Source of the DNA: Candidatus Staskawiczbacteria bacterium
Lineage (GTDB): Bacteria > Patescibacteriota > Minisyncoccia > Minisyncoccales > Staskawiczbacteraceae
Length of the DNA stretch: 64,000 nucleotides
Reading direction: 5' to 3'
NCBI GenBank assembly: GCA_026395295.1
Contig: JAPLYZ010000006.1
Location: forward strand, 21,836 to 85,835
Positions 1,421 to 14,375 of the stretch are shown here, one piece after another. The notes below the pieces were generated by a model. It had not been told where the DNA came from. It saw nothing but the letters and a program-made list of their open reading frames with translations, and did no database searches. Position 1 is the stretch's first letter; each line of letters starts with the position of its first letter. The translations under genes were made by a program, and so were the position numbers.

Positions 1421-1438
1421 TTAAATTTGTCGCCTGAC

Positions 1439-1467
1439 AAAAGCCCAACTCATTATAAGGGCTTTTT
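1439..1467 (+). terminator. Intrinsic terminator after the nuclease-like gene
   Basis: Stem aaaagccc / gggctttt with a loop and a trailing T-run. Confidence 0.6.
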
Positions 1468-1485
1468 GTTTGGCTTAAAAGGGGC

Positions 1486-1513
1486 TTGACACGGATTTAT
1501 GAAATGATATACT
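1486..1513 (+). promoter_or_regulatory. Sigma70-type promoter of the mini-HTH/HEPN operon
   Basis: TTGACA (1486-1491), 16-nt spacer, TATACT (1508-1513). Confidence 0.55.
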
Positions 1514-1603
1514 GAAAACTGAATAAATAACTTTAGATAAAAAGTAATACATGTCTTAGATGTATTTTTAGCCAATTATTACTTTTTTTTCTTATTAACC
1601 ACT

Positions 1604-1846
1604 ATGGATATAAAAGAAATAGATGTAATCAGAGAGCTTAAATCAACAAATAAGCTTTTAAGGGTAATCGTTTCCCTACTTCTTAAAAGGAAGGAAAAAG
1701 ATTTGCTTCCCTTGAAGGAACAGGTTGAGATTTTGTATGATTCTGGACTAAAACCAATTGAGATTGCTGAAATAATCGGTCGAAGCAATCTCTATGTTAA
1801 TAAAGAAATCTCCGGCATTAGAAAAAACAGGGAACAAAAAAAATAA
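1604..1846 (+). CDS. Mini HTH protein, paralog 1 of 4
   Basis: 80 aa. C-terminal HTH-like segment GLKPIEIAEIIGRSNLYVNKEISGIRK. The stop lies 1 nt before the next ATG. Confidence 0.7.
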   Translation: MDIKEIDVIRELKSTNKLLRVIVSLLLKRKEKDLLPLKEQVEILYDSGLKPIEIAEIIGRSNLYVNKEISGIRKNREQKK

Positions 1847-1847
1847 T

Positions 1848-2018
1848 ATGGCAAAGAAACAAAAACAAGAGAATACAACGGATGAACTGCTTCGAGATAT
1901 CTTTATCACTCAGCTTGGTTTGGCGGGGCTTACTCAACATCAAATAAGAGAAATTGTTGGGGTGGATATGCACCGCGTAAATCGTATTGTAAAACATTTT
2001 AAAAAATTAAACAAATAA
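1848..2018 (+). CDS. Mini HTH protein, paralog 2 of 4
   Basis: In-frame ATG at 1848 (MAKKQKQ...), chosen over the track start at 1794, which overlaps paralog 1. HTH-like GLTQHQIREIVGVDMHRVNRIVKHFKK. Confidence 0.65.
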   Translation: MAKKQKQENTTDELLRDIFITQLGLAGLTQHQIREIVGVDMHRVNRIVKHFKKLNK

Positions 2019-2019
2019 C

Positions 2020-2193
2020 ATGGAAAATAGTAAATTAGAGGAAAAAGTAGAGATTTTAGTAGAGTTAACGCGTCACAACTTGGTTCTCTCATTGTTCATG
2101 AGTGGAGCCACACAAGATGATATTTGCAAAAGTTTGCATATGAGTAAAACAAAGGTTGTAGACATGTTGAAAGGAGTTAAAAGAGATAAATAA
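2020..2193 (+). CDS. Mini HTH protein, paralog 3 of 4 (57 aa, below the track cutoff)
   Basis: Manual translation gives MENSKLEEKVEILVELTRHNLVLSLFMSGATQDDICKSLHMSKTKVVDMLKGVKRDK. It fills the gap between its neighbours exactly (1-2 nt spacers). Confidence 0.6.
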   Translation: MENSKLEEKVEILVELTRHNLVLSLFMSGATQDDICKSLHMSKTKVVDMLKGVKRDK

Positions 2194-2195
2194 TT

Positions 2196-2429
2196 ATGGA
2201 GCAAGAAAAACTTTCGGAAATATCAAAAAAACTTAATGTGCTCATTGCCCTGTCAATCAAAAATTTAGGGGGAGAAAAAGATTTTGGCAACAAGGGACGA
2301 AAGCAAGGTGCTGGCGAATTAGCACGCTATCTTTCAGATTTTGACATAGATTCTAAGGATATAGCAGAGATATTGGGTGCTCCTCTACAAAGCATAAGGA
2401 CATTATTAACGCCTAAAAGAAGAAAATAA
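2196..2429 (+). CDS. Mini HTH protein, paralog 4 of 4
   Basis: 77 aa. HTH-like DIDSKDIAEILGAPLQSIRTLLTPKRRK. Confidence 0.7.
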   Translation: MEQEKLSEISKKLNVLIALSIKNLGGEKDFGNKGRKQGAGELARYLSDFDIDSKDIAEILGAPLQSIRTLLTPKRRK

Positions 2430-2430
2430 T

Positions 2431-3147
2431 ATGGCTCGTCCTTGTATTCTTGACCCGAAAATAATGTCAAAAATTGCCAAAAAAATTGGCAAAAAAGATA
2501 TTACTGCCATCAATGTAATGGTAAGTAAAAAAGCATCAAAGCTTGGCATATCTGCTGAGGCGGCTTTTGTAATTTTGGCTAATAGCTACGGCATAGGGAC
2601 TTCTACATATCAAAAAAACTTAGACGATTCGAAACGTGCAGAAATTAGAGATTCAATACCTATCATTTTGAATGGTGCTAATCACACAAATTCTAAAAAA
2701 CAGAACAAGAATTATAGAAGAATAACCAATAATAAGCTGGCTTTGAAAATAGTAATCAATAATTTAATAAAAGATAAAGAATTATTGAGCAGATGTGGGG
2801 ATATTTTAATGGCACATAAGCATTTTGATAGACCTATAAATCAAGCAACGCAAGTGCTTGAGGACAGGGTAAGAGATAAATCAAAACCAACGAGCAAATT
2901 AACTGGAGAAAGTTTGGTCGGGTATGCTTTTAATGAAGATTCGGCTAAAACCGTTCTACAAGTTTTTAGTAAAGACGCTGATGACCAAAGAGGTTTTACT
3001 CAAATTATGAGAGGAATTGTTCCTGCATTTAGAAATAAAACCCATCATCATCTTGTAAATAGTTTTACTCAAGAAGAGGCATTGTCGGTTTGTGGGTTTA
3101 TAGATGTTTTGTTAAGAGTAGTTGATAATTCAACAAAAATAAAATAG
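2431..3147 (+). CDS. TIGR02391 (Hypoth_Ymh)-like protein with a HEPN-type Rx4H motif; putative RNase toxin/abortive-infection component
   Basis: 238 aa. The C-terminal GFTQIMRGIVPAFRNKTHHHLVNSFTQEEAL matches the family pattern as I recall it (R-N-x-x-H-H). The gene starts 1 nt after the stop of HTH paralog 4. Confidence 0.6.
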   Translation: MARPCILDPKIMSKIAKKIGKKDITAINVMVSKKASKLGISAEAAFVILANSYGIGTSTYQKNLDDSKRAEIRDSIPIILNGANHTNSKKQNKNYRRITNNKLALKIVINNLIKDKELLSRCGDILMAHKHFDRPINQATQVLEDRVRDKSKPTSKLTGESLVGYAFNEDSAKTVLQVFSKDADDQRGFTQIMRGIVPAFRNKTHHHLVNSFTQEEALSVCGFIDVLLRVVDNSTKIK

Positions 3148-3324
3148 ATTTTTTAAATTTGAAACAATTCCTTAAATAAGAATTAAATTATCCATTTCAA
3201 CCTTCATCAAACTCCAATCAATACTTCTGAACGCATCCAGTAGGGGGCGCACGAAGCACTTGGTATCACGCGATGCCGAGACCATAAAAAAGCTCATTCC
3301 CTAAAAAGTGAGCTTTTTGCTTGT

Positions 3325-3369
3325 TTGACATGGGTTTTGTTAAATAGTATACTAATAAAAATTAGTATA
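3325..3369 (+). promoter_or_regulatory. arsR-operon promoter with an overlapping inverted-repeat operator
   Basis: TTGACA (3325-3330), 17-nt spacer, TATACT (3348-3353). The inverted repeat tatactaat-aaaa-attagtata (3348-3369) covers the -10 box, as is typical for ArsR/SmtB operators. Confidence 0.6.
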
Positions 3370-3377
3370 GCTTTTTT

Positions 3378-3656
3378 ATGGAAAAGAAAATAGATAAAAT
3401 AAACGAATTTCTCAAAATAATAGCCGACCCAAATCGGCTTAAAATTTTAGTTTTCTTAAAAAATAAACCTCAATGCGTTTGTAAGATTTACCCAATGCTT
3501 AAAATCTCTCAAAAATTGGCTTCACACCACTTGTCCCAATTAAGAAAGTTAGATCTGGTTAAGCAGGAGAGAAACGGAAATTTTATATATTACAGCATAA
3601 ATAAAAAAGTTTTTAAAAAATATATGCATATTCTTAATTCAACAATAAAAATATGA
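3378..3656 (+). CDS. ArsR/SmtB family transcriptional repressor
   Basis: 92 aa. Contains ADPNRLKILVFL...CVCKI...SQKLASHHLSQLRKLDLV, a wHTH with a CxC metal/metalloid site. Confidence 0.85.
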   Translation: MEKKIDKINEFLKIIADPNRLKILVFLKNKPQCVCKIYPMLKISQKLASHHLSQLRKLDLVKQERNGNFIYYSINKKVFKKYMHILNSTIKI

Positions 3657-3940
3657 TAAAAATTTTAGGTATGGGTTGCCCAAGCTGTGCAACATTAGAG
3701 AAAAACGTAAAAGAGGCGTTAAAACAATTAAATAAAACCGACGAGGTTGTTAAAATAACCGATATTAAAGAAATTATGGGCTATGGAATAATGAGTGTGC
3801 CTGCTTTGGTTATTGACGAAAAAGTTTTAAGTTCCGGCACGGTTTTATCTGTTGATGAGGTAAAAGGTCTTCTTACAAATAATAAAGCCAGTGAAAACAC
3901 GCAAAAGCAGGGCGGTTGTTCGTGTGGCGGTAATTGTTAA
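3653..3940 (+). CDS. Small thioredoxin-fold protein (redox-active disulfide protein 2 type)
   Basis: N-terminal GMGCPSCATLEKN with a CxxC motif, and a Cys-rich tail CSCGGNC. It overlaps arsR by 4 nt. Confidence 0.75.
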   Translation: MIKILGMGCPSCATLEKNVKEALKQLNKTDEVVKITDIKEIMGYGIMSVPALVIDEKVLSSGTVLSVDEVKGLLTNNKASENTQKQGGCSCGGNC

Positions 3941-3948
3941 TTAAAATT

Positions 3949-4914
3949 ATGAGTATTTTTTATCCAGTTCAGTTATTAGCAGATTGGTTAACATATAGTG
4001 TTTTTCATATTGCTACCGAAACAACACTGGCAGGAGCAGTCAATTTTTTTATTTTTGACACAATAAAGATTTTGATTTTATTGATTGTAATTATCTTTAT
4101 CGTTTCAATTATCCGTTCTTTTCTGCCTCCTGAAAAAATCAAAAAGATACTTTCTCGTAAAAATAAATATGTTGGTAATGTTTTAGCTTCGTTGCTTGGC
4201 ATAATAACGCCATTCTGTACCTGTTCTGCCATCCCCTTGTTCCTGGGCTTTGTTGAGGCAGGAGTTCCTCTTGGAACGACTTTTTCTTTCCTTGTTGCTT
4301 CTCCAATGATAAACGAAGTGGCACTGGTGTTATTATTTGGATTGTTCGGCTTAAAAGTAGCCAGCATTTACGTCGTAAGCGGTTTAATTATAGCGATTTT
4401 GTCGGGTATTATTATAGGTCATTTTAAAGTTGAAAACCTTGTAGAGGACTTTTCAAATGGTAAAAAAATAAATGAACTGGATTTGCCTTCTCTTTCGTGG
4501 AAACAAAGATTTATCTACGCCAGAAATTATACTTTTGATATTGTAAAAAAGGTTTGGTTATATGTCATTATTGGAATTGGAGTTGGGGCTTGGATACACG
4601 GCTATGTTCCAGCCGACCTAATAGCAAAATACGCAAACGGAAATAATTGGTATGCCGTTCCTTTGGCTGTGCTTATCGGAATACCTCTTTATTCAAATGC
4701 GGCGGGAGTAATACCGCTAATTGGAGTTTTAACTGAAAAGGGGGTATCAATGGGAACTGCACTTGCTTTGATGATGGCTGTAACGGGTTTGTCTCTCCCA
4801 GAGTTCCTTATTTTAAGGAAAGTAATGAAAACAAAGCTTATACTTATATTCGCTGGTATAGTGGGAGTTGGGATTATTTTTACAGGTTATTTATTTAATT
4901 CTTTAATGAAATAA
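3949..4914 (+). CDS. Multi-pass permease (DUF318/ArsP-like, CTC motif)
   Basis: Highly hydrophobic, with the TPFCTCSAIPLF motif. The ATG at 3949 is preferred over the TTG at 3934. Confidence 0.7.
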   Translation: MSIFYPVQLLADWLTYSVFHIATETTLAGAVNFFIFDTIKILILLIVIIFIVSIIRSFLPPEKIKKILSRKNKYVGNVLASLLGIITPFCTCSAIPLFLGFVEAGVPLGTTFSFLVASPMINEVALVLLFGLFGLKVASIYVVSGLIIAILSGIIIGHFKVENLVEDFSNGKKINELDLPSLSWKQRFIYARNYTFDIVKKVWLYVIIGIGVGAWIHGYVPADLIAKYANGNNWYAVPLAVLIGIPLYSNAAGVIPLIGVLTEKGVSMGTALALMMAVTGLSLPEFLILRKVMKTKLILIFAGIVGVGIIFTGYLFNSLMK

Positions 4915-4915
4915 T

Positions 4916-5359
4916 ATGGGGAAAAAAATAATTATAGGAATAGGAGTAATAGCTTTAATTTTGTTAGCCGTTTTCGTTGTTAAGCCAAAAAATAACCTCA
5001 TAAATAGCACAAATCAAACAGGAGCTACAAAGGTTCAAGTTTTTCTTTTCCACGCAACCCAACGATGCCCGACCTGTATTAGTATCGGAAGATTAGCAAG
5101 GGCTACGGTAGAGGAAAGGTTTGCAGAGCAACTTAAATCTGGCACGATAGAATTTAGAGAGGTTAACATTGATCTCCCAGAAAATAAAGCTCTTGCAGAA
5201 AAATTCCAAGCTACTGGTTCGGCTCTCTATATTAACGCAATTAAAGATGGGCAAGATAATATAGCAGAGGATACTATGGTCTGGCAACTTGCGTCTGGTT
5301 ACGAGATCAAGTTTAAGGATTATTTATCGGAGAAGTTAAACACCATATTGGAAATATAA
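4916..5359 (+). CDS. Membrane-anchored thioredoxin-like protein (CPTC)
   Basis: N-terminal TM helix, then FHATQRCPTCISIG. Its size and context resemble the ArsF-like partners of DsbD-like transporters (low confidence). Confidence 0.6.
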   Translation: MGKKIIIGIGVIALILLAVFVVKPKNNLINSTNQTGATKVQVFLFHATQRCPTCISIGRLARATVEERFAEQLKSGTIEFREVNIDLPENKALAEKFQATGSALYINAIKDGQDNIAEDTMVWQLASGYEIKFKDYLSEKLNTILEI

Positions 5360-6078
5360 TGGAATTTATCAATACTATAATCGCTAACTATAACATACCT
5401 GTTTTATCAGCTTTTCTGTTGGGCATATTAACCTCTATAAGCCCCTGCCCGTTAGCCACCAACGTAACAGCTATCGCCTATATCTCCAAAGACATTAAAA
5501 CTCCAAAGCACACGATTTTATCAGGTCTTTTTTATACTTTGGGGAGGGGAATAAGTTACACATTATTGGCGACTTTAATCTATTTTGGTTTCTCCACTTT
5601 TCAGATTTCCCGAATTTTTCAAGGGTGGGGAGATAAAGTTCTGGGGATTGTTTTGATTTTAATAGGTTTAGTTATGTTCGGGGTAATTAAGATAAATATA
5701 AAAAATAATAGCCAAATTATTGAAAAGGCAAAACTATGGCTGGCAGATAAGGGTTATTTTGGGTCGTTGTTATTAGGTATGCTATTCGCCCTTGCTTTCT
5801 GTCCTTATAGTGGGGCTTTATTCTTTGGGGTAGTAATCCCATTGATAGTAAATTCGGTCGGCGGTTTGTTGCTCCCTGCTTTTTTCGCTTTGGGAACTGG
5901 TTTGCCAGTAATCATCTTCGCTTTTCTTATTGCTTTTAGCGTGAATACTGCGAGCAAAGCATTCCAATCGGTGCAAAAAATAGAGAAATATGTTCGTTAT
6001 GGGGTAGCGTCTGTATTTGTCTTGACGGGAATTTATTATATGCAGTTTTTAATTAAATTTATTTTGGGTTATTTTTAA
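5359..6078 (+). CDS. CcdA/DsbD-family thiol-disulfide transmembrane electron transporter (ArsG-like)
   Basis: 239 aa, about 6 TM helices. SPCPLATN and FCPYSG motifs sit in separate helices. Confidence 0.65.
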   Translation: MEFINTIIANYNIPVLSAFLLGILTSISPCPLATNVTAIAYISKDIKTPKHTILSGLFYTLGRGISYTLLATLIYFGFSTFQISRIFQGWGDKVLGIVLILIGLVMFGVIKINIKNNSQIIEKAKLWLADKGYFGSLLLGMLFALAFCPYSGALFFGVVIPLIVNSVGGLLLPAFFALGTGLPVIIFAFLIAFSVNTASKAFQSVQKIEKYVRYGVASVFVLTGIYYMQFLIKFILGYF

Positions 6079-6281
6079 GTCGTTGGCTTCAAGCCCGGGA
6101 TATAAGTATATTCTTTATTCTCCTGTATGGCGGTTCTAACGTCGTCCAACTAGCCCGCGCTTTCGTGAAAGCTGTTTCGAAGACGGCTTTTTTGTTGTAT
6201 AATGGAGTAAACATTCATTCAGCGAAGATAATAAAGGTCGAAAAAATAATTAGCAGAGCTAAAAAATTAAATCATTTTTTT

Positions 6282-6755
6282 ATGAATATAGCATCTTATT
6301 TATTAGCCAGTCTTTACTCGGGCGTTTCTCCGTCATTCAATGTTGCGGCTTTGTCTTGCACAGTGAATGGACAGGAGGTGGCGTGCCCGGGGTGGGCAGG
6401 GCCTTTAATGGCGTTCTTCCCGATTGTGATGTTGCTTTTTGTTGCTTTCATTTTTGTTACAATGTGGATAATCTTCAAAAAAGCAAATCAGCCGGGCTGG
6501 GCAGCCATCATTCCTGTTTATAACATTGTTGTAATGTTGCAAATTGTGCGAAAGCCTACTTGGTGGGTTATTCTGTCTTTTGTTCCATTAGTCAACATAA
6601 TTATAGGGTTGATTGTCATGTACGAATTTGCCAAAGTTTTTGGCAAAGGGTTCGGGTTCTTTTTGGGAATGCTTTTCTTGCCTATAATTTTTTATCCTAT
6701 TCTGGCTTTCGGAAAGTCTGTCTATATGCCGGGCAGTCAAGCTAAAATCGCATAA
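6282..6755 (+). CDS. Small membrane protein (DUF5684-like)
   Basis: IFKKANQPGWAAIIPVYNIVVMLQIVRKPTWW is the motif typical of this family. The ATG at 6282 is preferred, because the track start at 6165 reads through a terminator-like region. Confidence 0.6.
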   Translation: MNIASYLLASLYSGVSPSFNVAALSCTVNGQEVACPGWAGPLMAFFPIVMLLFVAFIFVTMWIIFKKANQPGWAAIIPVYNIVVMLQIVRKPTWWVILSFVPLVNIIIGLIVMYEFAKVFGKGFGFFLGMLFLPIIFYPILAFGKSVYMPGSQAKIA

Positions 6756-6786
6756 CTTTCTCTGGACGTTTATCCTTTATTGACCA

Positions 6787-6818
6787 AAAAACCACCTTTT
6801 TACAAATAGGTGGTTTTT
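6787..6818 (+). terminator. Intrinsic terminator
   Basis: aaaaaccacct / aggtggttttt stem with a T-run. Confidence 0.7.
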
Positions 6819-6838
6819 GTTTTAGTAAGTATATTTAC

Positions 6839-6867
6839 TTGACACGGCTGGTTTTTTAAAATATAAT
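6839..6867 (+). promoter_or_regulatory. Promoter of GC-rich cassette A
   Basis: TTGACA (6839-6844), 17-nt spacer, TATAAT (6862-6867). Confidence 0.65.
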
Positions 6868-6969
6868 CGCAAGTGCACCTTGACAAAAGCAAAACCATAT
6901 ATGTTTTATCCCGCTATTGTGGCGGGAGCAGATGTGGGCTTTATAGTCTGGGAGAAAGGATTGGTTATT

Positions 6970-7725
6970 ATGAAGAGCATTGTATTGATAGTATCAGCAT
7001 TGTTTTGGTCGGCAACTGCCGTATTCTCCGCTGGTCCGGCAACGACCAGTGGCGACTGGAGGTTCAGCTTCGCGTTCGCCCCAAATTACTACGACACGTC
7101 CGGGGTGGAGTCGAAGTCAATTCCGGTCAACCCTGCGGATGCAGGATTCTTGCACGGCAACACCGAGGCGCGCGCACGCAGCGGCGTGGACTGGGCGTGC
7201 TTCGAGCTGGGCCTGGCGAAAAGTTTTCGCATCAGAAGCTGGGAAGGGCAACGCTGGTCATTACGACCAATAGTTGGGATTAACGCGCAGTTCAGTTTCC
7301 TTTCCTTGGGGTCAGACAGCTCGGATAATACGGACAGGGCCCTTTTCAATGTTAAGCAACAGTCTTCAGACACGCGGCCACCCTCGAGCGGATCGTTCGT
7401 GTATGACAAACTGAATCCCGGAATTGTAACCCCAATTCCATTTCTGGGCGTGGAAATCAACTGCGGAAACCTGATCCTGAGTCCCGAGATCGGATTTGCG
7501 TGCAAGCAGTTCTCCCGGGAATTTGGCGATTACAGGTGGGCAGTTTTTTCAGCCATCGGGAAGTCTTCTGAATGGGTATTCAGCCCCAGACCAGCGCTGA
7601 AAATCGGCTACAAATTTGATGAGAACATCGAAGTAGGCGTGTCCTGCGCGTACGAGTCCTACAAGTGTAGCTTCGGCACCGTGAAGGAGTTTTCGGCCGG
7701 CATCTACGGGCGAATCAGCTTCTAG
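6970..7725 (+). CDS. GC-rich cassette A: secreted protein with outer-membrane beta-barrel-like features
   Basis: Signal peptide MKSIVLIVSALFWSATAVFSAGP. Alternating hydrophobic/polar strands and aromatic girdle residues. The C-terminal ...AGIYGRISF ends in Phe. gaaagga lies upstream of the ATG at 6970. The region is much more GC-rich than its flanks. Confidence 0.6.
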   Translation: MKSIVLIVSALFWSATAVFSAGPATTSGDWRFSFAFAPNYYDTSGVESKSIPVNPADAGFLHGNTEARARSGVDWACFELGLAKSFRIRSWEGQRWSLRPIVGINAQFSFLSLGSDSSDNTDRALFNVKQQSSDTRPPSSGSFVYDKLNPGIVTPIPFLGVEINCGNLILSPEIGFACKQFSREFGDYRWAVFSAIGKSSEWVFSPRPALKIGYKFDENIEVGVSCAYESYKCSFGTVKEFSAGIYGRISF

Positions 7726-7750
7726 CCCCTCTGCCTGGTCAGCGGTTTAT

Positions 7751-7786
7751 GCGGTTTCGTTCACTAAGCGAAACCGCCTTTTTTAT
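7751..7786 (+). terminator. Terminator of cassette A
   Basis: Stem gcggtttcg / cgaaaccgc, loop ttcactaag, then ctttttt. Confidence 0.75.
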
Positions 7787-7801
7787 TCGGTGTCATAAAC
7801 C

Positions 7802-7830
7802 TTGACAGGATTGCAATTATGATATAAAGT
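7802..7830 (+). promoter_or_regulatory. Promoter of GC-rich cassette B
   Basis: TTGACA (7802-7807), 17-nt spacer, TAAAGT (7825-7830). Confidence 0.5.
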
Positions 7831-7913
7831 ATTTGTAGCACTTAAAATCGGCGAATCCGAGCCTTGCATGGCTGCAAGGCAAGGACAAGCCAAAATATGG
7901 AAAGAAGACACCG

Positions 7914-8444
7914 ATGAAGAAAACAATCACAATTAAAACAGGTGATAAGCCGAAGCAGAAGAATGGAAAAACCGAAATGCAGAAGTTCCTGCTGGATCTC
8001 AGCCGCCAGATCGGCGCCGTGAAGCTGGGTGACGATGCTACTGGACCGAAGGAGGAAGTCGGACCAGGGGAAAGGGTTATCGGCACTTTGCCCGAAGACG
8101 TCAGGAAGCTCTTTGTTGTACACTCCAATCACATCGATGCGATGAATGGGCTGTGCAAGGGTTTCCACGCCTCATCATTGGAATTCCTTCTTGGCAAACC
8201 GCCTGAGCCCGAAGATGCGGTCGCTGCGGATCAACATGTCGTGTTGCACAGGCAGGTTGAACTCGTCAGCAATATCTTCTGGCACAGCGTCAGGAGAGCC
8301 TTTCCCGGAATTGCCTGCGAGGATCATATCGGGATCCGCAAGGACTGGCAGGTGGTCGTCATCCGCGAGCCCGAGTTGCCTAGTTCGGCGGTTGGTCTGG
8401 CTACTCTGCTGTCGCTATTGGGACGACAGCCTCATCGGGGTTAA
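7914..8444 (+). CDS. GC-rich cassette B: hypothetical protein (176 aa)
   Basis: Longest ORF of the GC-rich block, with overlapping shadow ORFs in other frames. I recognise no motif. Confidence 0.45.
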   Translation: MKKTITIKTGDKPKQKNGKTEMQKFLLDLSRQIGAVKLGDDATGPKEEVGPGERVIGTLPEDVRKLFVVHSNHIDAMNGLCKGFHASSLEFLLGKPPEPEDAVAADQHVVLHRQVELVSNIFWHSVRRAFPGIACEDHIGIRKDWQVVVIREPELPSSAVGLATLLSLLGRQPHRG

Positions 8445-8476
8445 CGCCCCGCCCTAATTTCGGGAAACTAGTTTAT

Positions 8477-8512
8477 GCCCCCTTTCGTTCACGCGAATCG
8501 GGGTCTTTTTTT
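8477..8512 (+). terminator. Terminator of cassette B
   Basis: ccccctttcg-ttcac-gcgaatcgggg followed by tcttttttt. It shares the 10-mer tttcgttcac with the terminator of cassette A. Confidence 0.6.
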
Positions 8513-8540
8513 ATAGCTACCGTAGTATACGGATACTTTT

Positions 8541-8560
8541 AATTCTGCGACCGCAGAATT
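8541..8560. repeat. Near-perfect 20-bp palindrome aattctgcg-ac-cgcagaatt
   Basis: 9-bp arms read directly from the sequence. It lies between the cassette B terminator and the helicase promoter. Confidence 0.5.
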
Positions 8561-8589
8561 CAGCGTATTAGCTGGGTGGGCAGTTTAAT

Positions 8590-8618
8590 TTGACATTAGG
8601 GATTTTTTGGTGTATAAT
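8590..8618 (+). promoter_or_regulatory. Helicase promoter (extended -10), leaderless-looking
   Basis: TTGACA, 17-nt spacer, tgTATAAT. Only 5 nt separate the -10 box from the ATG at 8624. Confidence 0.65.
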
Positions 8619-8623
8619 TAAGT

Positions 8624-9892
8624 ATGATACATAAACAAGCAGAAAAACCTTTATTAAATGAAACCGAAATGACTTTCGGCGGACTTGGCATTGCTCCAAA
8701 AATTCTTGATGTAATTTCAAAATTAGGATTTAGCGTCCCAACTTCCATACAACACAAGGCAATTACGCCTGCCATTGAAGGCAAAGATATTATTGGAATA
8801 GCTCAAACCGGCACAGGAAAAACTTTGGCATTTGGAATTCCCCTGATTCAGCAAATTTTGAAGGTTGGAGGACGAAAGGGTAAAGGCTTAATTATTTTGC
8901 CGACTCGCGAACTGGCCCTGCAGGTTGACGAAGTTATGCAAAAAATTGGCAGGTCATTTGGCATAAAAACAGTGGTTTTAATTGGAGGCGCTTCAATGTA
9001 TAACCAAGTGTGCTTAATAAGAAATAATCCTCATATTGTCATTGGAACCCCGGGAAGAATTATTGATCACATAGCTCAAAGAACCCTGAGTTTGAGCGAT
9101 GTCTCGGTGCTAATTTTAGACGAAGCCGACAGAATGTTTGACATGGGTTTTGCTCCACAAATAGCCAAAATACTTCAAGTTGTTCCAAAAGAAAGACAAA
9201 CAATGCTGTTTTCAGCAACCATGCCCGATGGCATTGTAAAAATTGCCAGCCATCATATGAAACTTCCGGTAAGGGTGGAAATAGCCAGGGCCGGAACCAC
9301 TGCTGAAAACATTGAGCACGAACTTTTTGTTGTTAAAAGGGACCAGAAATTTCCGTTGCTGAAAAAATTGCTTGAAGAGTACAAAGGAAGCGTGCTAATT
9401 TTTTTAAGAGTTAAGCATAACGCCAGAAAAATTTGCGATGGTTTGCGAGGCGTTGGAATTTCTTCAGCTGAAATACATTCAAACAGGTCTCTGGGCCAGA
9501 GAAAAGAAGCCTTAGAAGGCTTTAAGTTGGGCAGGTACAGGGTGCTTGTTGCAACTGACATTGCCTCGCGCGGGATAGATGTGAAGGGCATTGAGCTGGT
9601 TATCAATTATGACCTGCCGGAAAATCCTGAAGATTATGTTCACAGAATTGGAAGAACCGGCAGGGCCGGCATGACAGGCAAAGCAATTTCTTTTTGTTTG
9701 CCTGACCAAGGAGATAAAGTAAGGGAGATAGAAAGATTAACGCGGCTTTATTTGCCCATTGTAAAATTGCCGGACCTTTCGGCTCACATGGGTAAGCCCA
9801 TTAGCGCTTCAAATAGTTTTGAGAGAAATAATTATCCTCCGCGCAGGTCTAGGCAAACTAACCGTTTTAGTTATGCAAAAAAAAGATACTAA
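8624..9892 (+). CDS. DEAD-box ATP-dependent RNA helicase
   Basis: Q-motif, AQTGTGKT, PTRELA, DEAD (LILDEADRM), SAT, HRIGRTGRAG. Confidence 0.95.
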   Translation: MIHKQAEKPLLNETEMTFGGLGIAPKILDVISKLGFSVPTSIQHKAITPAIEGKDIIGIAQTGTGKTLAFGIPLIQQILKVGGRKGKGLIILPTRELALQVDEVMQKIGRSFGIKTVVLIGGASMYNQVCLIRNNPHIVIGTPGRIIDHIAQRTLSLSDVSVLILDEADRMFDMGFAPQIAKILQVVPKERQTMLFSATMPDGIVKIASHHMKLPVRVEIARAGTTAENIEHELFVVKRDQKFPLLKKLLEEYKGSVLIFLRVKHNARKICDGLRGVGISSAEIHSNRSLGQRKEALEGFKLGRYRVLVATDIASRGIDVKGIELVINYDLPENPEDYVHRIGRTGRAGMTGKAISFCLPDQGDKVREIERLTRLYLPIVKLPDLSAHMGKPISASNSFERNNYPPRRSRQTNRFSYAKKRY

Positions 9893-11150
9893 ATTAAAAA
9901 AAGAAATTAAATATGACGTTGCTGTTGTTGGAGGAGGCCCGGCTGGTATAATGGTGGCTGCCACAGCTGCAGAATTAGGGGCCAAAGTTGTGTTAATAGA
10001 AAAAAATAAACAGCTTGGCAACAAGCTTCTTTTGACCGGCAAGGGCAGGTGTAATTTAACTAACGCAGAGTTCAACCTGAGAGAGCTGGTGAAGAGCTAT
10101 AATAATGGTGAATTTTTATTTCACGCTTTTTCTGTTTTTGGTCCGAAAGAAACAATTGAATTTTTCGAAAAGCTGGGGGTAAAAACTAAGATTGAAAATG
10201 GCAAAAGAGTCTTCCCCGCAAGTAATGACGCAGAAGAAGTTTTAGAAGCGCTAAATAAATTTTTAGTTAAAAATAAGGTAGAAGTGCTTTTTAATTGCGA
10301 GGTCAAGGATGTTGTTAAAAAAGGGAATAGAATTGGAAAAATAATTTTAAACACGGGAGAGGTAACAGCTAAAAAATATATTTTTTGTAGTGGAGGAAAA
10401 TCTTATTCTTTGACCGGTTCTGATGGCTCGGGATATAAATTGGTTGAAAAATTAGGGCATACAATTATAAACCCAAAACCTGCTTTAACTCCCATAAAAC
10501 TGAAAGATAACTTAAAGGGCGGAGGCATTAAAAACTTGCAGGGTATAAATTTAGAAAATATAAGGTTAAGCGTTTTCCAAAACAATAAAAAGCAATTTTC
10601 AGAACCCGGAGAAATCTTGTTTACTCATTTTGGAATAAGCGGGCCGGCTGTTTTAAACATCAGCGGAAAAGTTGGCGACTTGCTGGAATTGGGAGAGGTA
10701 AAAATAATTGTTGATTTGTTTCCAGAGTTGAATCAAGAAGAAGTTTCTGAAAGTTTTGAAGAGATGTTAAAAAAATATCCGAAGAAGACTTCAAAAAATG
10801 TTTTATCGGAATTTTTGCAAGAGAGGCTGGCAGAATTTATATTGGGCATTTCCGGCATAGATAAAGATAAAACAGCTAACAACATGTCTAAGATTGAAAA
10901 AGCAATGTTGGTGAAAATTCTCAAAAATTTTGAATTGACGCCGGAAGCTGTTTTAGGTTTTGAAGGAGCCATGGTTACAAGAGGAGGCGTATCTTTAAAA
11001 GAAATAGATCACAAAACAATGCAGTCAAAGATAATAGATAATTTATTTTTTGCAGGAGAAATTATTGATGTCGACGGAAGAACAGGAGGATTTAATTTGC
11101 AATCCTGCTGGAGCACGGGTTATTTGGCCGGTAAAAGTGTTATAGATTAA
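9873..11150 (+). CDS. HI0933/BaiN-like FAD-dependent oxidoreductase (aminoacetone oxidase family)
   Basis: DVAVVGGGPAGIM dinucleotide fold, GKGRCNLTN, and C-terminal FFAGEIIDVDGRTGGFNLQ. The internal ATG at 9873 is preferred. Confidence 0.85.
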   Translation: MQKKDTKLKKEIKYDVAVVGGGPAGIMVAATAAELGAKVVLIEKNKQLGNKLLLTGKGRCNLTNAEFNLRELVKSYNNGEFLFHAFSVFGPKETIEFFEKLGVKTKIENGKRVFPASNDAEEVLEALNKFLVKNKVEVLFNCEVKDVVKKGNRIGKIILNTGEVTAKKYIFCSGGKSYSLTGSDGSGYKLVEKLGHTIINPKPALTPIKLKDNLKGGGIKNLQGINLENIRLSVFQNNKKQFSEPGEILFTHFGISGPAVLNISGKVGDLLELGEVKIIVDLFPELNQEEVSESFEEMLKKYPKKTSKNVLSEFLQERLAEFILGISGIDKDKTANNMSKIEKAMLVKILKNFELTPEAVLGFEGAMVTRGGVSLKEIDHKTMQSKIIDNLFFAGEIIDVDGRTGGFNLQSCWSTGYLAGKSVID

Positions 11151-11180
11151 AAAATATTTGATACTGTCAAGCATACTTTT

Positions 11181-11202
11181 CCGAGGCATTCCTCGGCTTT
11201 TT
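11181..11202 (+). terminator. Intrinsic terminator
   Basis: ccgagg-catt-cctcgg followed by cttttt. Confidence 0.7.
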
Positions 11203-11257
11203 AATTTGCTTTGAAGGTCTTTCATTTTGATAGTTTAGTTATCCACAGGTATGCATA

Positions 11258-11287
11258 TTGACACCCGACTTTTTGGTCAGTTATAAT
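11258..11287 (+). promoter_or_regulatory. lexA promoter, leaderless-looking
   Basis: TTGACA (11258-11263), 18-nt spacer, TATAAT (11282-11287). The ATG at 11294 is 6 nt after the -10 box. Confidence 0.6.
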
Positions 11288-11293
11288 GATTTA

Positions 11294-11929
11294 ATGACCA
11301 AGATTACAAAAAGACAGAAACAATTATTAGAGATTATTTATGATTATATTAGGGACACGGGTTATCCTCCGACATTTGAAGAAATGCGGGAAAGTTTAGG
11401 TGTGGTTTCAAACCAGTCCATTATTGACCTCTTGGCAAAATTAGAAAAGCAAAAATTGTTGAAAAGAAACGAGGCTTCTGCAAGGAGTTTAACCATTTTA
11501 CCTTTTGGTGACAAAATTTTGGAGCGACCGGCGTTAATCCCATTTTTGGGTGCCACAACAGCCGGTTCGCCTATGGAGGCAATGGAAATAGCGGGTGAAT
11601 GGAAGCAGATTTCTCCAGAAATTAAAGAATTAAAAAATAATGTTTTTATTTTGAAAGTTTTTGGTGATTCAATGATAAATGCCGGTATAGAAAATGAGGA
11701 TATAGTTTTAGTGAAAGAGCAGAAGGAATTTATTTCAGGTGACATAGTCTTAGCTCAGACAGAGGACGGCTCAACAATAAAAAGATTTATTTCAGACGAT
11801 AAACCGCCATATATTTATTTAAAACCGGAAAATCCAAAGTATAAAAATATTCCTTTTTCAGAAAACATGGAGTTAAAAGGCAAGATAATTTCAATATTAA
11901 AAAACGGATATTGGGGACCAGTAAAATAA
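11294..11929 (+). CDS. lexA: LexA repressor
   Basis: N-terminal wHTH (KRQKQLLEIIYDYIRDTGYPPTFEEM), an A-G cleavage site (TTAGSP), and S24 peptidase motifs GDSM and K (IKRF). Confidence 0.9.
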   Translation: MTKITKRQKQLLEIIYDYIRDTGYPPTFEEMRESLGVVSNQSIIDLLAKLEKQKLLKRNEASARSLTILPFGDKILERPALIPFLGATTAGSPMEAMEIAGEWKQISPEIKELKNNVFILKVFGDSMINAGIENEDIVLVKEQKEFISGDIVLAQTEDGSTIKRFISDDKPPYIYLKPENPKYKNIPFSENMELKGKIISILKNGYWGPVK

Positions 11930-11945
11930 CTGGTATAATAAGTTT

Positions 11946-14372
11946 ATGAAAAAAATAAAAGATATAAACTTTGCTCTTGTTGAGGAAACTCGACCACCAA
12001 TTTATACCGCTATGAAATATTGGGGGAAAAAACCTCATAATATTTGGCGGGAGTATATTAAGAACTACACTCCTGAAGATGGTTTATATTTAGATCCGTT
12101 TGCTGGTAGCGCAATAAGTGCTTTTGAGGCGATAAAAGCTGGCAGAAAAGCTATCGCGTTTGATTTGAATCCATTAACCTCTTTTTTGATAGAGACTTTT
12201 TGTAGTGAGTTTAAAAGAGAAAAATTTTTAGACGAAGTAAACAAAATAGTTGATGAAGTCAAAAATGATAAAGTTTATCAGGAATATTTTTATACCACTT
12301 GCAGAAAATGTGGGAGCAATTCAGCTGTGGCACAAAGCTTTAAATGGGAAAACGGAGAACTCTATGAGGTCGGAATTGAGTGTTTAAAATGTCAAAAAAA
12401 TAAAAAATCTCGATATCTTGAAAAACCGACATCAGCAGAAATAGCTAAAGTAAAAGAATTAAATAAGATAAAGATAAACACATGGTATCCTGAGGATGAA
12501 TTCTATAATTCGCCGTCTTTTTCTGCAAATTTTATAGAATGTATTGGAGGCAATCATTTTTCTGATTTATGGACCAGAAGAAATTTATATGTAATTTCCA
12601 GAATTTTTAACAAAATACTTGAAGTTGATGATATTACTCTAAAAAATCAGCTTTTGTTAGGTTTTATTAAAACAATCCATTTATGTACAAAAATGAGTGT
12701 CCCAAGAAGAGAAAAAGCGAATAGGGCTTTTTCTACGAGCTGGGGAAGATCAGCGTATATTTGTGCGGCGAGACAAATGGAAATGAACCCTTTAATGGTT
12801 TTTTATGGAAGTTGTTTCGGAAAGCAATCAGTCGAAAGCTCGCTTATTGATATAAAAAAATATTTAGGGAAAATTCCAAAAATATTATATGTTGATAAAA
12901 GCAATAAAAGTAATAAATCAAAAAATTTCGATATAAAATATGGCATTATTGATATAAATACAATTACCGATTTTATTGAAGAGGATTCAATAGATTTTAT
13001 TATGACAGATCCTCCATATGGTGGCCTTGTCCAGTATTTGGATTTGAGCACAATATGGCTGATTTGGTTAAAGAAATTCGATCAGAGATTTACTCCAAAC
13101 TATGAAAGTGAGATAACTGTAAAAAATAATATCCAGGATATTAATACCTATAAGATAAAGTTTCAAAATGGTATTAAAAATCTTTTTAAAGTATTAAAAA
13201 ATGACGGAAAAATAGTCTTTACATTTCATAATAAGGACATTAAAATTTGGAATGCCTTTTTAAATGCGATTTCAATGTCTGGTTTTAAAATAGAGAAAGT
13301 TATTCATCAACAAAATAGACGAACGGGAGAATCAAATGTTGCAAATCCTTACGGGACATCAGCTACCGATTTTTATATCCGTTGTATAAAAAAACCGACT
13401 GCAAGTTTCAAAACGGACGAACAAGAGTTTGAGCATTATGTCGTTGAAAAAACCATAAATCTTATAGCCCAAAGAAACGAACCAACCCCATATCAGATAT
13501 TATTTAATGGTATTTTGGCTGAAATTTCATCTGCTGGATTTAATATTGAGAATTTTGATAAGAATATTGAGCAAATTTTGTCTGCTCATGTCGGAACTAT
13601 TTTTGCGCTCAAAGACAATAATAGTAAGGCAGGAAAATATTGGTGGTTTAAAAATCCAACAGAATATATTAAATATCCCGATAAAAAACTAACCGATAGA
13701 GTTGAGGAAACAATAGCCTCTCTTTTAAGGCGAAAAGTGTCCGTGACACTTGATGAAGTTTTGGGTGAAATATTTGTTAAATATCCAAATGGATTAACTC
13801 CTGATATTAAATCAATCGATCAAATATTGAAAAAATTTGCTAATAAATCAGGTGGCAAGTGGGTTTATAGGGGCGGCGAAACCGAAAAAGATTTTACGGA
13901 TCATACTGAAATGCTTTATTTTTTGTCAGAAATCGGGAGGAAAATGGGATACGAAATCTATATTGGCAAAAGAGAGCAACCAGAAAATTACAATGGAAAG
14001 AGCCTATCAGAATATGCCGATATTACAAAATTGGATAAGTTAAATTTTGATCAGGATAAAAAAGATAGAGTTGAAATGATAGACATGGTCTGGATAAATA
14101 ATGATAGTGCTGAATATGCTCTTGAGGTAGAAAACTCCACAGACTTTACATCTGGCATACAAAGAGCGTCCAATCTTGATATTTCAATAAAGAAAATCAT
14201 GGTCTTACCGAATAAGAGAAAAGCAGAATTTTTGAACATTAAAGATCCTCTGTTTACTGAGAGTTTTAAAAAATATAACTGGTGCTATCTTTTTTATGAT
14301 GACATAATAAAGTTAAAATCCCTTAGAAATATCGATAAAGAAAACATAAATACCTTTTTGAACCATTTTTAA
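11946..14372 (+). CDS. Zn-ribbon DNA methyltransferase (COG1743-like) fused to a C-terminal PD-(D/E)xK-like domain; candidate type IIG-like R-M enzyme
   Basis: SAM motif LDPFAGSAISAFEA. CxxC...CxxC ribbon (CRKCGS...CLKCQ). Catalytic MTDPPYGG. The C-terminal IDMVW...YALEVENSTDF is nuclease-like (inference). Confidence 0.7.
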   Translation: MKKIKDINFALVEETRPPIYTAMKYWGKKPHNIWREYIKNYTPEDGLYLDPFAGSAISAFEAIKAGRKAIAFDLNPLTSFLIETFCSEFKREKFLDEVNKIVDEVKNDKVYQEYFYTTCRKCGSNSAVAQSFKWENGELYEVGIECLKCQKNKKSRYLEKPTSAEIAKVKELNKIKINTWYPEDEFYNSPSFSANFIECIGGNHFSDLWTRRNLYVISRIFNKILEVDDITLKNQLLLGFIKTIHLCTKMSVPRREKANRAFSTSWGRSAYICAARQMEMNPLMVFYGSCFGKQSVESSLIDIKKYLGKIPKILYVDKSNKSNKSKNFDIKYGIIDINTITDFIEEDSIDFIMTDPPYGGLVQYLDLSTIWLIWLKKFDQRFTPNYESEITVKNNIQDINTYKIKFQNGIKNLFKVLKNDGKIVFTFHNKDIKIWNAFLNAISMSGFKIEKVIHQQNRRTGESNVANPYGTSATDFYIRCIKKPTASFKTDEQEFEHYVVEKTINLIAQRNEPTPYQILFNGILAEISSAGFNIENFDKNIEQILSAHVGTIFALKDNNSKAGKYWWFKNPTEYIKYPDKKLTDRVEETIASLLRRKVSVTLDEVLGEIFVKYPNGLTPDIKSIDQILKKFANKSGGKWVYRGGETEKDFTDHTEMLYFLSEIGRKMGYEIYIGKREQPENYNGKSLSEYADITKLDKLNFDQDKKDRVEMIDMVWINNDSAEYALEVENSTDFTSGIQRASNLDISIKKIMVLPNKRKAEFLNIKDPLFTESFKKYNWCYLFYDDIIKLKSLRNIDKENINTFLNHF

Positions 14373-14375
14373 TTT

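What the first reader, a model, noticed from the sequence alone, without database searches (positions are those of the whole stretch)
6970..7725. Outer-membrane beta-barrel-like protein encoded in a genome type thought to lack an outer membrane
The cassette A product has a cleavable signal peptide, amphipathic beta-strand periodicity, aromatic residues at strand ends and a C-terminal ...YGRISF ending in Phe. This is the classic signature recognised by the BAM machinery.

If the backbone really is CPR, whose members are generally described as having Gram-positive-like envelopes without an OM, such a protein is out of place. It could be non-functional cargo. It could also be something deployed toward a Gram-negative host, which is speculative.
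Basis: partly seen in the sequence, partly recalled or inferred. Interest (0 to 1): 0.55.

Follow-up and report, generated by a model that had tools for sequence, protein, structure and literature searches.

The report
Outer-membrane-type barrel gene in CPR bacterium
A tiny lake bacterium of the single-membrane CPR group carries a recently imported gene for a small barrel protein of the kind that sits in Gram-negative outer membranes, yet its genome shows none of the outer-membrane assembly genes that were searched for.

Summary
ORF 6970-7725 (+) encodes a 251-aa precursor with a signal peptide and a C-terminal Phe. AlphaFold2 folds it confidently (pLDDT 81.8) as a closed beta-barrel. Its best structural matches are all small outer-membrane (OM) barrels (NspA Z 17.1, PagL, OprF-N, OmpW).

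The host genome is a 0.90-Mb, 97.6%-complete Patescibacteria (CPR) genome. Searches found no Omp85/BamA, LpxC, LptD, LolA, TolC or Skp, and no other OMP_b-brl gene.

The gene and an orphan gene B form a 52-58% GC islet (~6900-8528) in a 39% GC genome. The islet lies in a variable spot and was not found in 60 relatives. Independent DNA contigs span both junctions, so it is a real, recent import and not a chimera.

Gene A has a perfect host-style sigma-70 promoter and an intrinsic terminator. Metatranscriptome contigs lie on it.

The protein belongs to a rare unnamed family (74 clusters) that links only weakly to Pfam OMP_b-brl. Three further CPR genomes of 400 sampled carry members, including a one-contig genome, and none has Omp85.

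Function is unproven. I favour an exported barrel that folds without BAM and acts at the surface or host contact (0.5) over neutral cargo (0.3). Earlier notes of this scan report other OM-type barrels in other CPR genomes.

The parts
6787..6818 (+). Terminator-like hairpin ending the upstream DUF5684 gene. It lies in host-like AT-rich DNA.
   Evidence: Inverted repeat I1, 15-nt arms, 93% complementary. RNA fold -13.8 kcal/mol, z -2.81. DUF5684 by Pfam.
6839..6867 (+). Sigma-70-type promoter of gene A: TTGACA-17 nt-TATAAT, 12 of 12 consensus positions.
   Evidence: It is one of 31 perfect -35/-10 pairs in the genome, against a mean of 1.45 (maximum 3) in 20 block shuffles. Its spacer layout, with a T-run, resembles that of the helicase promoter at 8590.
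6950..6959 (+). Shine-Dalgarno-like GGGAGAAAGG, 10 nt before the ATG.
   Evidence: Read directly from the sequence. Not tested further.
6970..7725 (+). Gene A: 251-aa precursor of a small OM-type beta-barrel protein (P0001). Residues 1-21 are a signal peptide (6970-7032).
   Evidence: Contigs from RNA libraries lie on 6974-7124, 7143-7493 and 7490-7640 (run X9) and on 7003-7238 (run X10).
7751..7784 (+). Intrinsic terminator of gene A: 11-bp stem followed by a U-run.
   Evidence: RNA fold -16.3 kcal/mol, z -4.67, 0 of 200 shuffles fold as well.
7802..7830 (+). Promoter-like site before gene B, 10 of 12 consensus positions.
7914..8444 (+). Gene B: orphan ORF of 176 aa. The alternative start at Met22 (7977) gives the 155-aa form found in the database.
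   Evidence: The only hit in 5.8 billion proteins is itself. No Pfam or NCBIfam match. AF2 pLDDT 51.5. An RNA-library contig lies on 8100-8325.
8477..8512 (+). Intrinsic terminator of gene B: hairpin followed by U7.
   Evidence: RNA fold -14.0 kcal/mol, z -3.58, 0 of 200 shuffles fold as well.
6900..8528 (.). GC-rich islet holding genes A and B. The boundaries are approximate.
   Evidence: 400-nt windows reach 0.49-0.58 GC, against 0.26-0.40 in the surrounding 16 kb. A 30-nt profile was also made. The genome mean is 0.393, sd 0.047. Homology to relatives resumes at 8578-8606.
8529..8568 (.). Host-genome dispersed palindrome (core TTCTGCGRYCGCAGAA). It marks the return to native DNA.
   Evidence: 8 copies on contigs C10, C11, C17 and C20. 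It explains the loose-end contigs in runs X1 and X6.
8590..8618 (+). Perfect sigma-70-type promoter of the conserved DEAD-box helicase gene (8624-9892).
   Evidence: The helicase is 72-82% identical in same-genus genomes.

Best explanation
SHOWN. A two-gene, 52-58% GC islet (~6900-8528) was inserted recently into a variable spot just upstream of the DEAD-box helicase gene. The host is a 0.9-Mb Patescibacteria genome, called Staskawiczbacteria in earlier notes of this scan. Gene A is a complete transcription unit with a host-style consensus promoter, an RBS, an ORF and an intrinsic terminator. It encodes a signal-peptide precursor of a small (8-10-stranded) OM-type beta-barrel. The barrel belongs to a rare, unnamed family that touches Pfam OMP_b-brl only weakly. 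No OM or BAM/Lpt/Lol marker was found in the genome, while signal peptidase I is present.

INFERRED. The precursor is exported by Sec and cut by signal peptidase I. Without BAM, the barrel must fold unaided into whatever bilayer it meets, as small OMPs can do in thin or defect-rich bilayers in vitro. It then serves as a surface or host-contact protein: an anchor or adhesin whose two long, highly conserved inter-strand segments (PVxPxDxGFLxGxT and QQSSDTRPxxxGSFVY) carry the specificity. The bilayer would be either the bacterium's own lysolipid-rich membrane or the outer membrane of a diderm host at the attachment site.

In this lineage the gene was most likely taken from a diderm donor or from a shared mobile pool, and it is kept because it is useful.
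For: Barrel fold.

Family link: 7 of 41 relatives hit PF13505 (best E 4e-7) and 1 hits Opacity.

No decay: the copy keeps all 15 invariant or near-invariant family positions (2 invariant, 13 nearly so), which are numbered on it. R189 and E229 sit on the polar strand face.

Real insertion: DNA contigs of 17,847 nt (run X1) and 3,408 nt (run X6), from runs of two studies, span both junctions with 0 differences. Eight DNA runs hold 97-100% of the sampled words, although all may be source samples.

Recent and strain-specific: 0 of 60 relatives carry it, 25 of them in the same genus. The upstream neighbourhood differs among congeners.

Host-style expression signals.

RNA: contigs from metatranscriptome libraries lie on 6974-7640 and 8100-8325.

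Export route: signal peptidase I is present.

Recurrence in CPR: 4 of 401 sampled Patescibacteria genomes, counting this one, carry family members. One is a single-contig 1.1-Mb genome (G111). Another (G101) has a 40% GC copy beside PNPase and S15 genes in a 37% GC region. None of the three other carriers has Omp85, whereas both planctomycete carriers do. The CPR copies sit at three or more separate places in the family tree.

Literature: small OMPs fold spontaneously into thin bilayers, but poorly into native PE/PG lipids without BamA (PMC7383365, passages). CPR membranes are enriched in lysolipids (PMC7242380, title and abstract in a search listing; PMC11665869, passage).
Against: No protein-level evidence exists, and localisation is unknown.

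The gene was not found in any of the 60 relatives and its GC is far from the host's. It is therefore young, and selection has had little time to prove itself.

RNA-library contigs can contain DNA carry-over and give neither strand nor ends.

The family keeps a C-terminal aromatic residue typical of BAM clients (66 of 80 rows), which suggests it evolved for diderms.

Without BAM, folding into native-type PE/PG bilayers is kinetically unfavourable (PMC7383365).

The partner gene B is an orphan of no known fold.

The host organism of this CPR bacterium is unknown.

The nearest homologues are only 44-51% identical and of unknown taxonomy, so no donor is identified.
Confidence: 0.5

Rival explanations
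1. Neutral, transient cargo. The islet is a recent accidental import from a diderm. It is transcribed only because it carries or landed behind a strong promoter. Its product is exported, misfolds and is degraded, and the gene will be lost.
For: It was not found in 60 of 60 relatives. Its GC is 52-58% against 39% for the genome. No BAM, Skp or Lol gene was found that could handle it. Its partner gene B is an orphan. The genome holds 53 regions of at least 49% GC. One further islet gene (C17:74159-75205) is also missing from 40 of 40 relatives, so this strain takes up foreign DNA often.
Against: The ORF is intact with all conserved family positions. Its promoter, RBS and terminator are of host style and consensus quality. 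Members of the same rare family occur in 3 other CPR genomes of 400, one at host-like GC. By contrast, 0 of 400 other sampled Planctomycetota carry it, with the caveat that at most 6 candidates per genome were scored. From general knowledge, streamlined 0.9-Mb genomes rarely keep useless DNA.
Confidence: 0.3
2. It is not a membrane protein. Instead it is a secreted or lipid-anchored soluble 8-stranded barrel (avidin, YceI or lipocalin-like, or like the barrel lobes of TbpB, NHBA and HpuA) that binds a small ligand.
For: VIA-align also lists soluble barrels at Z 9-12. 30 of 80 family rows have a lipobox-like motif. An alternating pattern alone does not say which strand face is buried.
Against: OM barrels score clearly higher (Z 15-17) and fill the Foldseek list. 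7 of 41 relatives match PF13505. A terminal aromatic is present in 66 of 80 rows. Strands are very long (22-24 residues). The non-hydrophobic face is rich in Gly, Ser, Ala, Arg and Glu, as in OM-barrel lumens.
Confidence: 0.08
3. Artefact. The islet is an assembly chimera, or the contig is mis-binned from a diderm.
For: There is a sharp GC jump. All DNA runs that hold the stretch may be source samples. Only contigs were laid, not raw reads.
Against: The islet lies inside contig C10 (109,862 nt), with conserved CPR genes on both sides. Two separately assembled contigs from runs of two studies cross both junctions with 0 differences and no joints. A host-specific dispersed palindrome and host-style promoters flank it. 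Contamination is estimated at 0.46%.
Confidence: 0.03
4. The organism does have an outer membrane or an equivalent outer lipid layer, assembled by unrecognised machinery, and the barrel sits there.
For: Earlier AI notes of this scan report other OM-type barrels in other CPR genomes (unverified here). CPR envelopes have been imaged for few lineages (PMC8871954, passage).
Against: All seven OM marker families searched gave 0 matches in a 97.6%-complete genome. This gene is strain-specific, not lineage-wide. Canonical PF13505 passes its cut-off in only 1 of 401 sampled Patescibacteria.
Confidence: 0.05

Closest known systems
Small 8-stranded OM barrels NspA, Opa, OmpX, Ail and the OmpA/OprF N-domain (Pfam OMP_b-brl PF13505, Opacity PF02462)
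   Same: Signal peptide, antiparallel barrel, long protruding hairpins and a C-terminal Phe. Structural matches: NspA Z 17.1 (151 aligned residues, rmsd 3.2) and OprF-N Z 15.8. 7 of 41 relatives hit PF13505.
   Different: P0001 itself matches no Pfam or NCBIfam model and no PDB sequence. It is about 80 residues longer, probably with 10 strands. It has two strongly conserved inter-strand segments that those families lack. Its host shows no OM markers and no BamA gene.
PagL lipid A deacylase (PDB 2erv)
   Same: Second-best structural match: Z 16.3, rmsd 2.5, with the highest identity in the list at 15%.
   Different: No His or Ser is invariant or nearly invariant in the family, so there is no sign of a hydrolase dyad. 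That PagL uses a His-Ser site is recalled, not tested. No LpxC (lipid A synthesis) gene was found in the host genome.
10-stranded OM barrels OmpT, Pla and OpcA
   Same: Top Foldseek rows (E about 1e-6). pOmpT aligns over 189 residues (Z 8.5). The strand count of the model is about ten.
   Different: TM-scores are low (0.3-0.44) and rmsd values high. There is no omptin Pfam match. Catalytic residues were not examined.
OM-type barrels noted by this scan in other CPR genomes (FadL/TodX-like, 12- and 14-stranded barrels; AI notes, unverified)
   Same: OM-type barrel genes in Patescibacteria, several of them on GC-rich patches or with consensus promoters.
   Different: Those notes describe lineage-conserved genes of other barrel families. 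This one is a small barrel of a different family and is strain-specific.

Membership tests
Pfam OMP_b-brl (PF13505) / MBB-type small outer-membrane barrels | Match to the family HMM above the curated cut-off | tested here: not met
   P0001 has 0 Pfam families at E<=0.1. The six-frame genome search with PF13505 gave 0 matches. Only 7 of 41 relatives match, best E 4e-7.
Pfam OMP_b-brl (PF13505) / MBB-type small outer-membrane barrels | Closed antiparallel beta-barrel fold like that of solved OM proteins | tested here: met
   AF2 pLDDT 81.8. Foldseek gives 64 matches at E<=0.001, and the listed ones are OM barrels. VIA-align gives Z 15-17 for NspA, PagL, OprF-N and OmpW.
Pfam OMP_b-brl (PF13505) / MBB-type small outer-membrane barrels | N-terminal Sec signal peptide and a C-terminal aromatic residue (beta-signal) | tested here: met
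   The signal peptide was judged by eye. The protein ends in F. 66 of 80 family rows end in F, W or Y.
Pfam OMP_b-brl (PF13505) / MBB-type small outer-membrane barrels | Host has an outer membrane with BAM (Omp85) to assemble it | tested here: not met
   0 matches each for Omp85, LpxC, LptD, LolA, OEP and OmpH in a 97.63%-complete genome.
Pfam OMP_b-brl (PF13505) / MBB-type small outer-membrane barrels | Hydrophobic belt facing lipid; residence in a membrane | not testable with these tools
   Only the alternation of strand faces could be computed.
PagL-type OM lipid A deacylase | Conserved catalytic His/Ser on the barrel rim (recalled feature) | tested here: not met
   No His or Ser is among the invariant or nearly invariant columns of the 41-sequence alignment.
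   No integrase or transposase was found by Pfam among 16 ORFs of window 1-17,100. The only shared 3' motif is a 10-mer in the two terminators. With one mismatch allowed it occurs 5 times, against 5.68 expected. The 40-nt palindrome is a dispersed host repeat.

The most novel reading that the evidence does not exclude
Patescibacteria repeatedly recruit outer-membrane-type beta-barrels and assemble them without BAM. The barrels would go either into an unrecognised outer lipid layer or, more strikingly, into the outer membrane of the host cell at the attachment site, as self-inserting anchors or conduits for an episymbiotic life. This rare family, with its conserved loop motifs, would be one such tool that moves between CPR lineages.
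Probability: 0.2. Interest if true: 0.85.

Novelty: new variant of a known kind. Interest (0 to 1): 0.55.

Why it matters
OM beta-barrels are regarded as a hallmark of diderm cells and as obligate clients of BamA. Here such a gene is intact and carries host-style expression signals, and contigs from RNA libraries lie on it. It sits in a CPR genome where no OM assembly gene was found. Relatives occur in three other CPR genomes, one of them a single-contig genome.

This offers a concrete, small (230-residue) test object for two open questions. The first is how CPR cells contact and exploit their hosts. The second is whether OM-type barrels can work in vivo without BAM.

If the gene is only cargo, the locus still documents how readily diderm surface genes enter CPR genomes.

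Tried and rejected
1. Assembly chimera or mis-binning: rejected because contigs span both junctions and the flanks are conserved CPR DNA.

2. Integron, attC or another mobile-element cassette: no integrase or transposase was found in window 1-17,100. There is no Y1 transposase in the genome. Boundary direct repeats are only weak chance-level pairs. The 10-mer shared by the two terminators is not enriched, and the alignment of the three intergenic regions shows little else.

3. The palindrome 8529-8568 as an island end: it is a dispersed host repeat with 8 copies, most of them in ordinary-GC surroundings.

4. Phage or plasmid carriage: 0 relatives in viral contigs (62 pattern matches, none confirmed), plasmids or phages.

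5. Sequence-level links to solved structures and to NCBIfam: none.

6. Gene B: no homologue, no family, and AF2 pLDDT 51.5. No fold search was run on that model.

7. RNA-library contigs gave no cover on 5800-6870, 7676-8099 or 8346-8880.

8. Vertical inheritance of the CPR copies: searches centred on G111 or G101 only re-drew genomes already sampled and added nothing.

9. Donor identity: the nearest proteins carry no taxonomy. The tool that would fetch their contigs is closed, and the single scans of genome contigs and metagenome contigs were already spent.

10. P0071 and P0077 are translations of simple repeats, not fused forms. The 'longer' and 'shorter' searches for fused or split forms were not run.

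11. Papers: three searches listed no paper whose title or abstract describes an OM-type barrel protein in CPR. Only listings were seen, plus passages of three papers, so this is no proof that none is in print.

Full report
THE OBSERVATION

Residues 1-21 read as a Sec signal peptide. This was judged by eye, because no predictor was on hand.

AlphaFold2, run on an alignment of six family members, gives mean pLDDT 81.8 and pTM 0.75, with about ten long strands. Foldseek against the PDB returned 64 matches at E<=0.001. The listed ones are outer-membrane (OM) barrels: Pla, OmpA, OmpT, OpcA, Ail, NspA and OmpX.

An independent all-against-all structural search of 48,161 chains put small OM barrels on top:
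- NspA, Z 17.1
- PagL, Z 16.3
- Legionella porin III, Z 15.9
- OprF N-domain, Z 15.8
- OmpW, Z 15.4

Soluble barrels such as avidins, YceI and the TbpB lobes reached only Z 9-12. In the long strands a hydrophobic/aromatic face alternates with a Gly/Ser/Ala/Arg/Glu face.

THE HOST GENOME

The window is part of contig C10 of a 902,891-base, 20-contig genome rated 97.63% complete and 0.46% contaminated. The tool places it in the same phylum as G159. The gene coordinates of G159 coincide with a public record titled Candidatus Saccharibacteria. The genome is therefore Patescibacteria/CPR. The finer label Staskawiczbacteria comes from earlier notes of this scan and was not verified here.

Six-frame family searches found no Omp85/BamA, LpxC (43), LptD (44), OMP_b-brl (45), LolA (46), OEP/TolC (82) or OmpH/Skp (83). 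Each search was positive in control diderm genomes. Signal peptidase I is present. Passages in three papers describe CPR as monoderm or lacking an OM (PMC8871954, bioRxiv 10.1101/2021.05.31.446380, PMC13278184).

THE LOCUS

Gene A and a second gene B (7914-8444) form a block of 49-58% GC, measured in 400-nt windows. The surrounding 16 kb runs at 26-40%, and the genome mean is 39.3% (sd 4.7% in 600-nt windows).

Each gene is its own transcription unit.
- Gene A: a perfect TTGACA-17-TATAAT promoter (6839-6867), an RBS-like GGGAGAAAGG, and a strong intrinsic terminator (7751-7784; -16.3 kcal/mol, z -4.67).
- Gene B: a 10-of-12 promoter (7802-7830) and a terminator (8477-8512; z -3.58).

Perfect -35/-10 pairs are this organism's own promoter style. 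There are 31 in the genome, against 1.45 expected. The neighbouring helicase promoter has the same T-run spacer layout.

The right edge of the islet abuts a 40-nt palindrome that occurs 8 times in this genome. Homology to congeners resumes at 8578-8606.

The DEAD-box helicase downstream is 72-82% identical in same-genus genomes, but what lies upstream of it differs from genome to genome. In two congeners the ArsP-type permease gene, which ends at 4914 in this window, lies about 1.2 kb (G007) or 4.4 kb (G013) upstream of the helicase, with other small genes between them. The islet therefore sits in a variable spot. No integrase or transposase is nearby.

REAL OR ARTEFACT

Eight DNA runs of two studies hold 97-100% of the stretch's sampled words, although all may be source samples. 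Contigs assembled separately from two of these runs, 17,847 nt and 3,408 nt long, cross both junctions with no difference and no joint. Only contigs could be laid, not raw reads. With conserved CPR genes on both sides inside a 110-kb contig, I consider a chimera very unlikely.

Contigs from metatranscriptome libraries lie on 6974-7124, 7143-7493 and 7490-7640 (run X9, with one C>T change at 7342, which would be Leu125Phe). Further contigs lie on 7003-7238 and 8100-8325 (run X10). This fits transcription of both genes. However, contigs give no strand or ends, and RNA libraries can carry DNA.

THE FAMILY

The word-indexed search found five relatives besides the window's own protein, the best at 49% identity. 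The exhaustive search of 1.84 billion representatives found 74 at E<=0.001, of which 40 are at <=1e-10 and 5 at <=1e-30. Nearly all are 230-280 aa long. Two of the 74 are junk repeat translations.

P0001 matches no Pfam or NCBIfam model. A profile of 41 members finds no PDB sequence. Even so, 7 of the 41 members touch PF13505 OMP_b-brl (best E 4e-7) and one touches Opacity. This is an unnamed family at the edge of the small-OMP clan.

The most conserved positions fall into three groups:
- two long inter-strand segments, consensus PVHPDDxGFLxGxT and QQxSDxRPxxxGSFVY;
- a few lumen-face residues, including G103, R189 and E229;
- the terminal Phe.

No His or Ser is conserved, so a PagL-like hydrolase site is not supported.

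Of 80 rows, 66 end in F, W or Y, and 30 have a lipobox-like motif. The 80 rows were chosen as follows. I dropped P0002, P0003 and P0080 (not family members, or the window's own proteins), P0071 and P0077 (repeat junk), P0079 and P0087 (short), and P0081-P0086 (near-copies from the same clusters). Three rows duplicate others.

WHERE THE FAMILY OCCURS

- Pattern-limited scans found 3 genome contigs: one from the Saccharibacteria-titled MAG, one Pirellulales and one Planctomycetaceae.
- They found 9 metagenome contigs ranging from 30% to 71% GC.
- Nothing was found in viral contigs, plasmids or phages.
- The gene was not found in 60 relatives of the window's genome: 25 of the same genus, 11 of the same family and 24 of the same order.
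- An even sample of the phylum gave 4 of 401 genomes, counting this one. The others are G101 (1.0 Mb, 4 contigs), G111 (1.1 Mb, a single contig) and G159.
- None of these three has Omp85, whereas both planctomycete carriers do.
- A like-sized sample of the planctomycete carrier's phylum gave only the centre genome itself, 1 of 401. At most six candidates per genome were scored there.
- Canonical PF13505 passes its cut-off in just 1 of 401 sampled Patescibacteria.

In G101 the gene has 40% GC in a 37% GC region, next to ORFs that I read by eye as PNPase and ribosomal protein S15. It looks like a settled resident. In G111 it lies between an IS200-like Y1 transposase gene and a second, partial copy of that gene.

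In a quick maximum-likelihood tree the CPR copies fall in three or more separate places. The window's protein sits in a well-supported group of seven with proteins of unknown origin. The pattern is one of several independent arrivals in CPR genomes, not one inherited gene.

A FOREIGN-DNA-RICH GENOME

The genome holds 53 regions of at least 49% GC. Those I looked at encode enzymes and signal-peptide proteins. One further islet gene (C17:74159-75205, no Pfam match) is also missing from all 40 relatives searched. The OMP islet is thus one of many recent additions in this strain.

HOW IT MOST LIKELY WORKS

Shown: a recent, real import of an intact OM-type barrel gene with host-style expression signals, into a genome where no BAM, Lpt, Lol, Skp or TolC gene was found but signal peptidase I is present.

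Inferred: the precursor is exported by Sec and cleaved, and the barrel must then fold without BAM. Small OMPs do fold spontaneously into thin or defect-rich bilayers in vitro. They fold poorly into native PE/PG lipids unless BamA is present (PMC7383365, passages). CPR membranes are reported to be enriched in lysolipids (PMC7242380, title and abstract in a listing; PMC11665869, passage), which would lower that barrier.

I therefore favour (0.5) a surface or host-contact role. The barrel would sit in the cell's own membrane or in a diderm host's outer membrane, and the conserved loops would provide binding.

The main rival (0.3) is transient cargo that is expressed but useless. Youth of the insertion, the orphan partner gene and the missing machinery argue for the rival. 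Against it stand the intact conserved residues, the consensus promoter and terminator, and the recurrence of this rare family in other CPR genomes.

The other rivals score lower:
- a soluble ligand-binding barrel, 0.08;
- an unrecognised outer layer, 0.05;
- an artefact, 0.03.

COMPARISON AND NOVELTY

The protein works like the small OM barrels NspA, Opa, OmpX, Ail and OmpA-N, and it shares their fold and end signals. It fails the sequence test for PF13505, it is longer, it has its own conserved segments, and it sits in a host without the defining membrane. I file it as a new variant of a known kind.

Three literature searches listed no paper whose title or abstract describes an OM-type barrel protein in CPR. 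Only listings were seen, plus passages of three papers, so a description elsewhere cannot be excluded. Earlier AI notes of this scan report other OM-type barrels (FadL-like, 12- and 14-stranded) in other CPR genomes. I did not verify them.

VERDICT

Function remains open. Interest 0.55.

Noticed in passing
window 8529-8568; also G000 C11:83944, 84601, 91860, 95396; C17:19744, 73947; C20:15668: A dispersed 36-40-nt palindrome (core TTCTGCGRYCGCAGAA flanked by ATACG...CGTAT) has 8 copies in this 0.9-Mb genome. The two most similar copies (95%) both lie at the right end of GC-rich islets. No Y1/RAYT transposase was found in the genome. It may be a REP-like element or a regulator binding site.
   Followed up: partly
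whole genome G000 (for example C4:13301-15600, C10:94901-97800, C17:72001-74800): There are 53 regions of at least 49% GC in a 39.3% GC genome. The sampled ones encode enzymes (a PurH-like protein with AICARFT/MGS domains) and signal-peptide proteins without a Pfam family. One of them (C17:74159-75205) is absent from 40 of 40 relatives searched, so this strain seems rich in recent imports.
   Followed up: partly
window 7914-8444: Gene B is an orphan of 176 aa (or 155 aa from Met22). It has no homologue in 5.8 billion proteins, no Pfam or NCBIfam match, and AF2 pLDDT 51.5. It has its own promoter-like site and terminator, and an RNA-library contig lies on 8100-8325.
   Followed up: partly
whole genome G000; window 6839-6867, 8590-8618 and 11258-11287 (= C10:33093): There are 31 perfect TTGACA-N16-18-TATAAT promoters in 0.9 Mb, against 1.45 in shuffles. 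The three copies printed from contig C10 carry a T-run in the spacer. This suggests an unusually consensus-like promoter grammar in this CPR lineage.
   Followed up: partly
L046 (G111:C1) 8772-12072: In a single-contig 1.1-Mb Patescibacteria genome, the family member (10030-10788) lies between an IS200-like Y1 transposase gene (8772-9350) and a second ORF (11674-12072) with the same C-terminus. The arrangement resembles a composite transposon. A restriction-modification-sized gene pair lies nearby.
   Followed up: partly
L001 3517-4461 (same as L029 3304-4248): In the Saccharibacteria-titled MAG, the family member is followed directly by a 314-aa signal-peptide protein rich in aromatic residues. 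This may be a second barrel. It was not analysed.
   Followed up: no
window 3934-6755: An ArsP-type permease, a thioredoxin-like ORF, DsbD_2 and DUF5684 precede the islet. In congeners G007 and G013 the permease is followed by other genes (one of which I read by eye as rhodanese-like) before the helicase. The whole 4.9-8.6 kb stretch is a variable region of the genus.
   Followed up: partly
L027 (16.6 kb of a 166-kb metagenome contig, 41% GC): A family member sits in a run of tightly packed same-strand genes. By eye these include AbrB-like, Lrp-like, HEAT-repeat and radical-SAM-like ORFs. The organism is unidentified and no Pfam scan was run.
   Followed up: no
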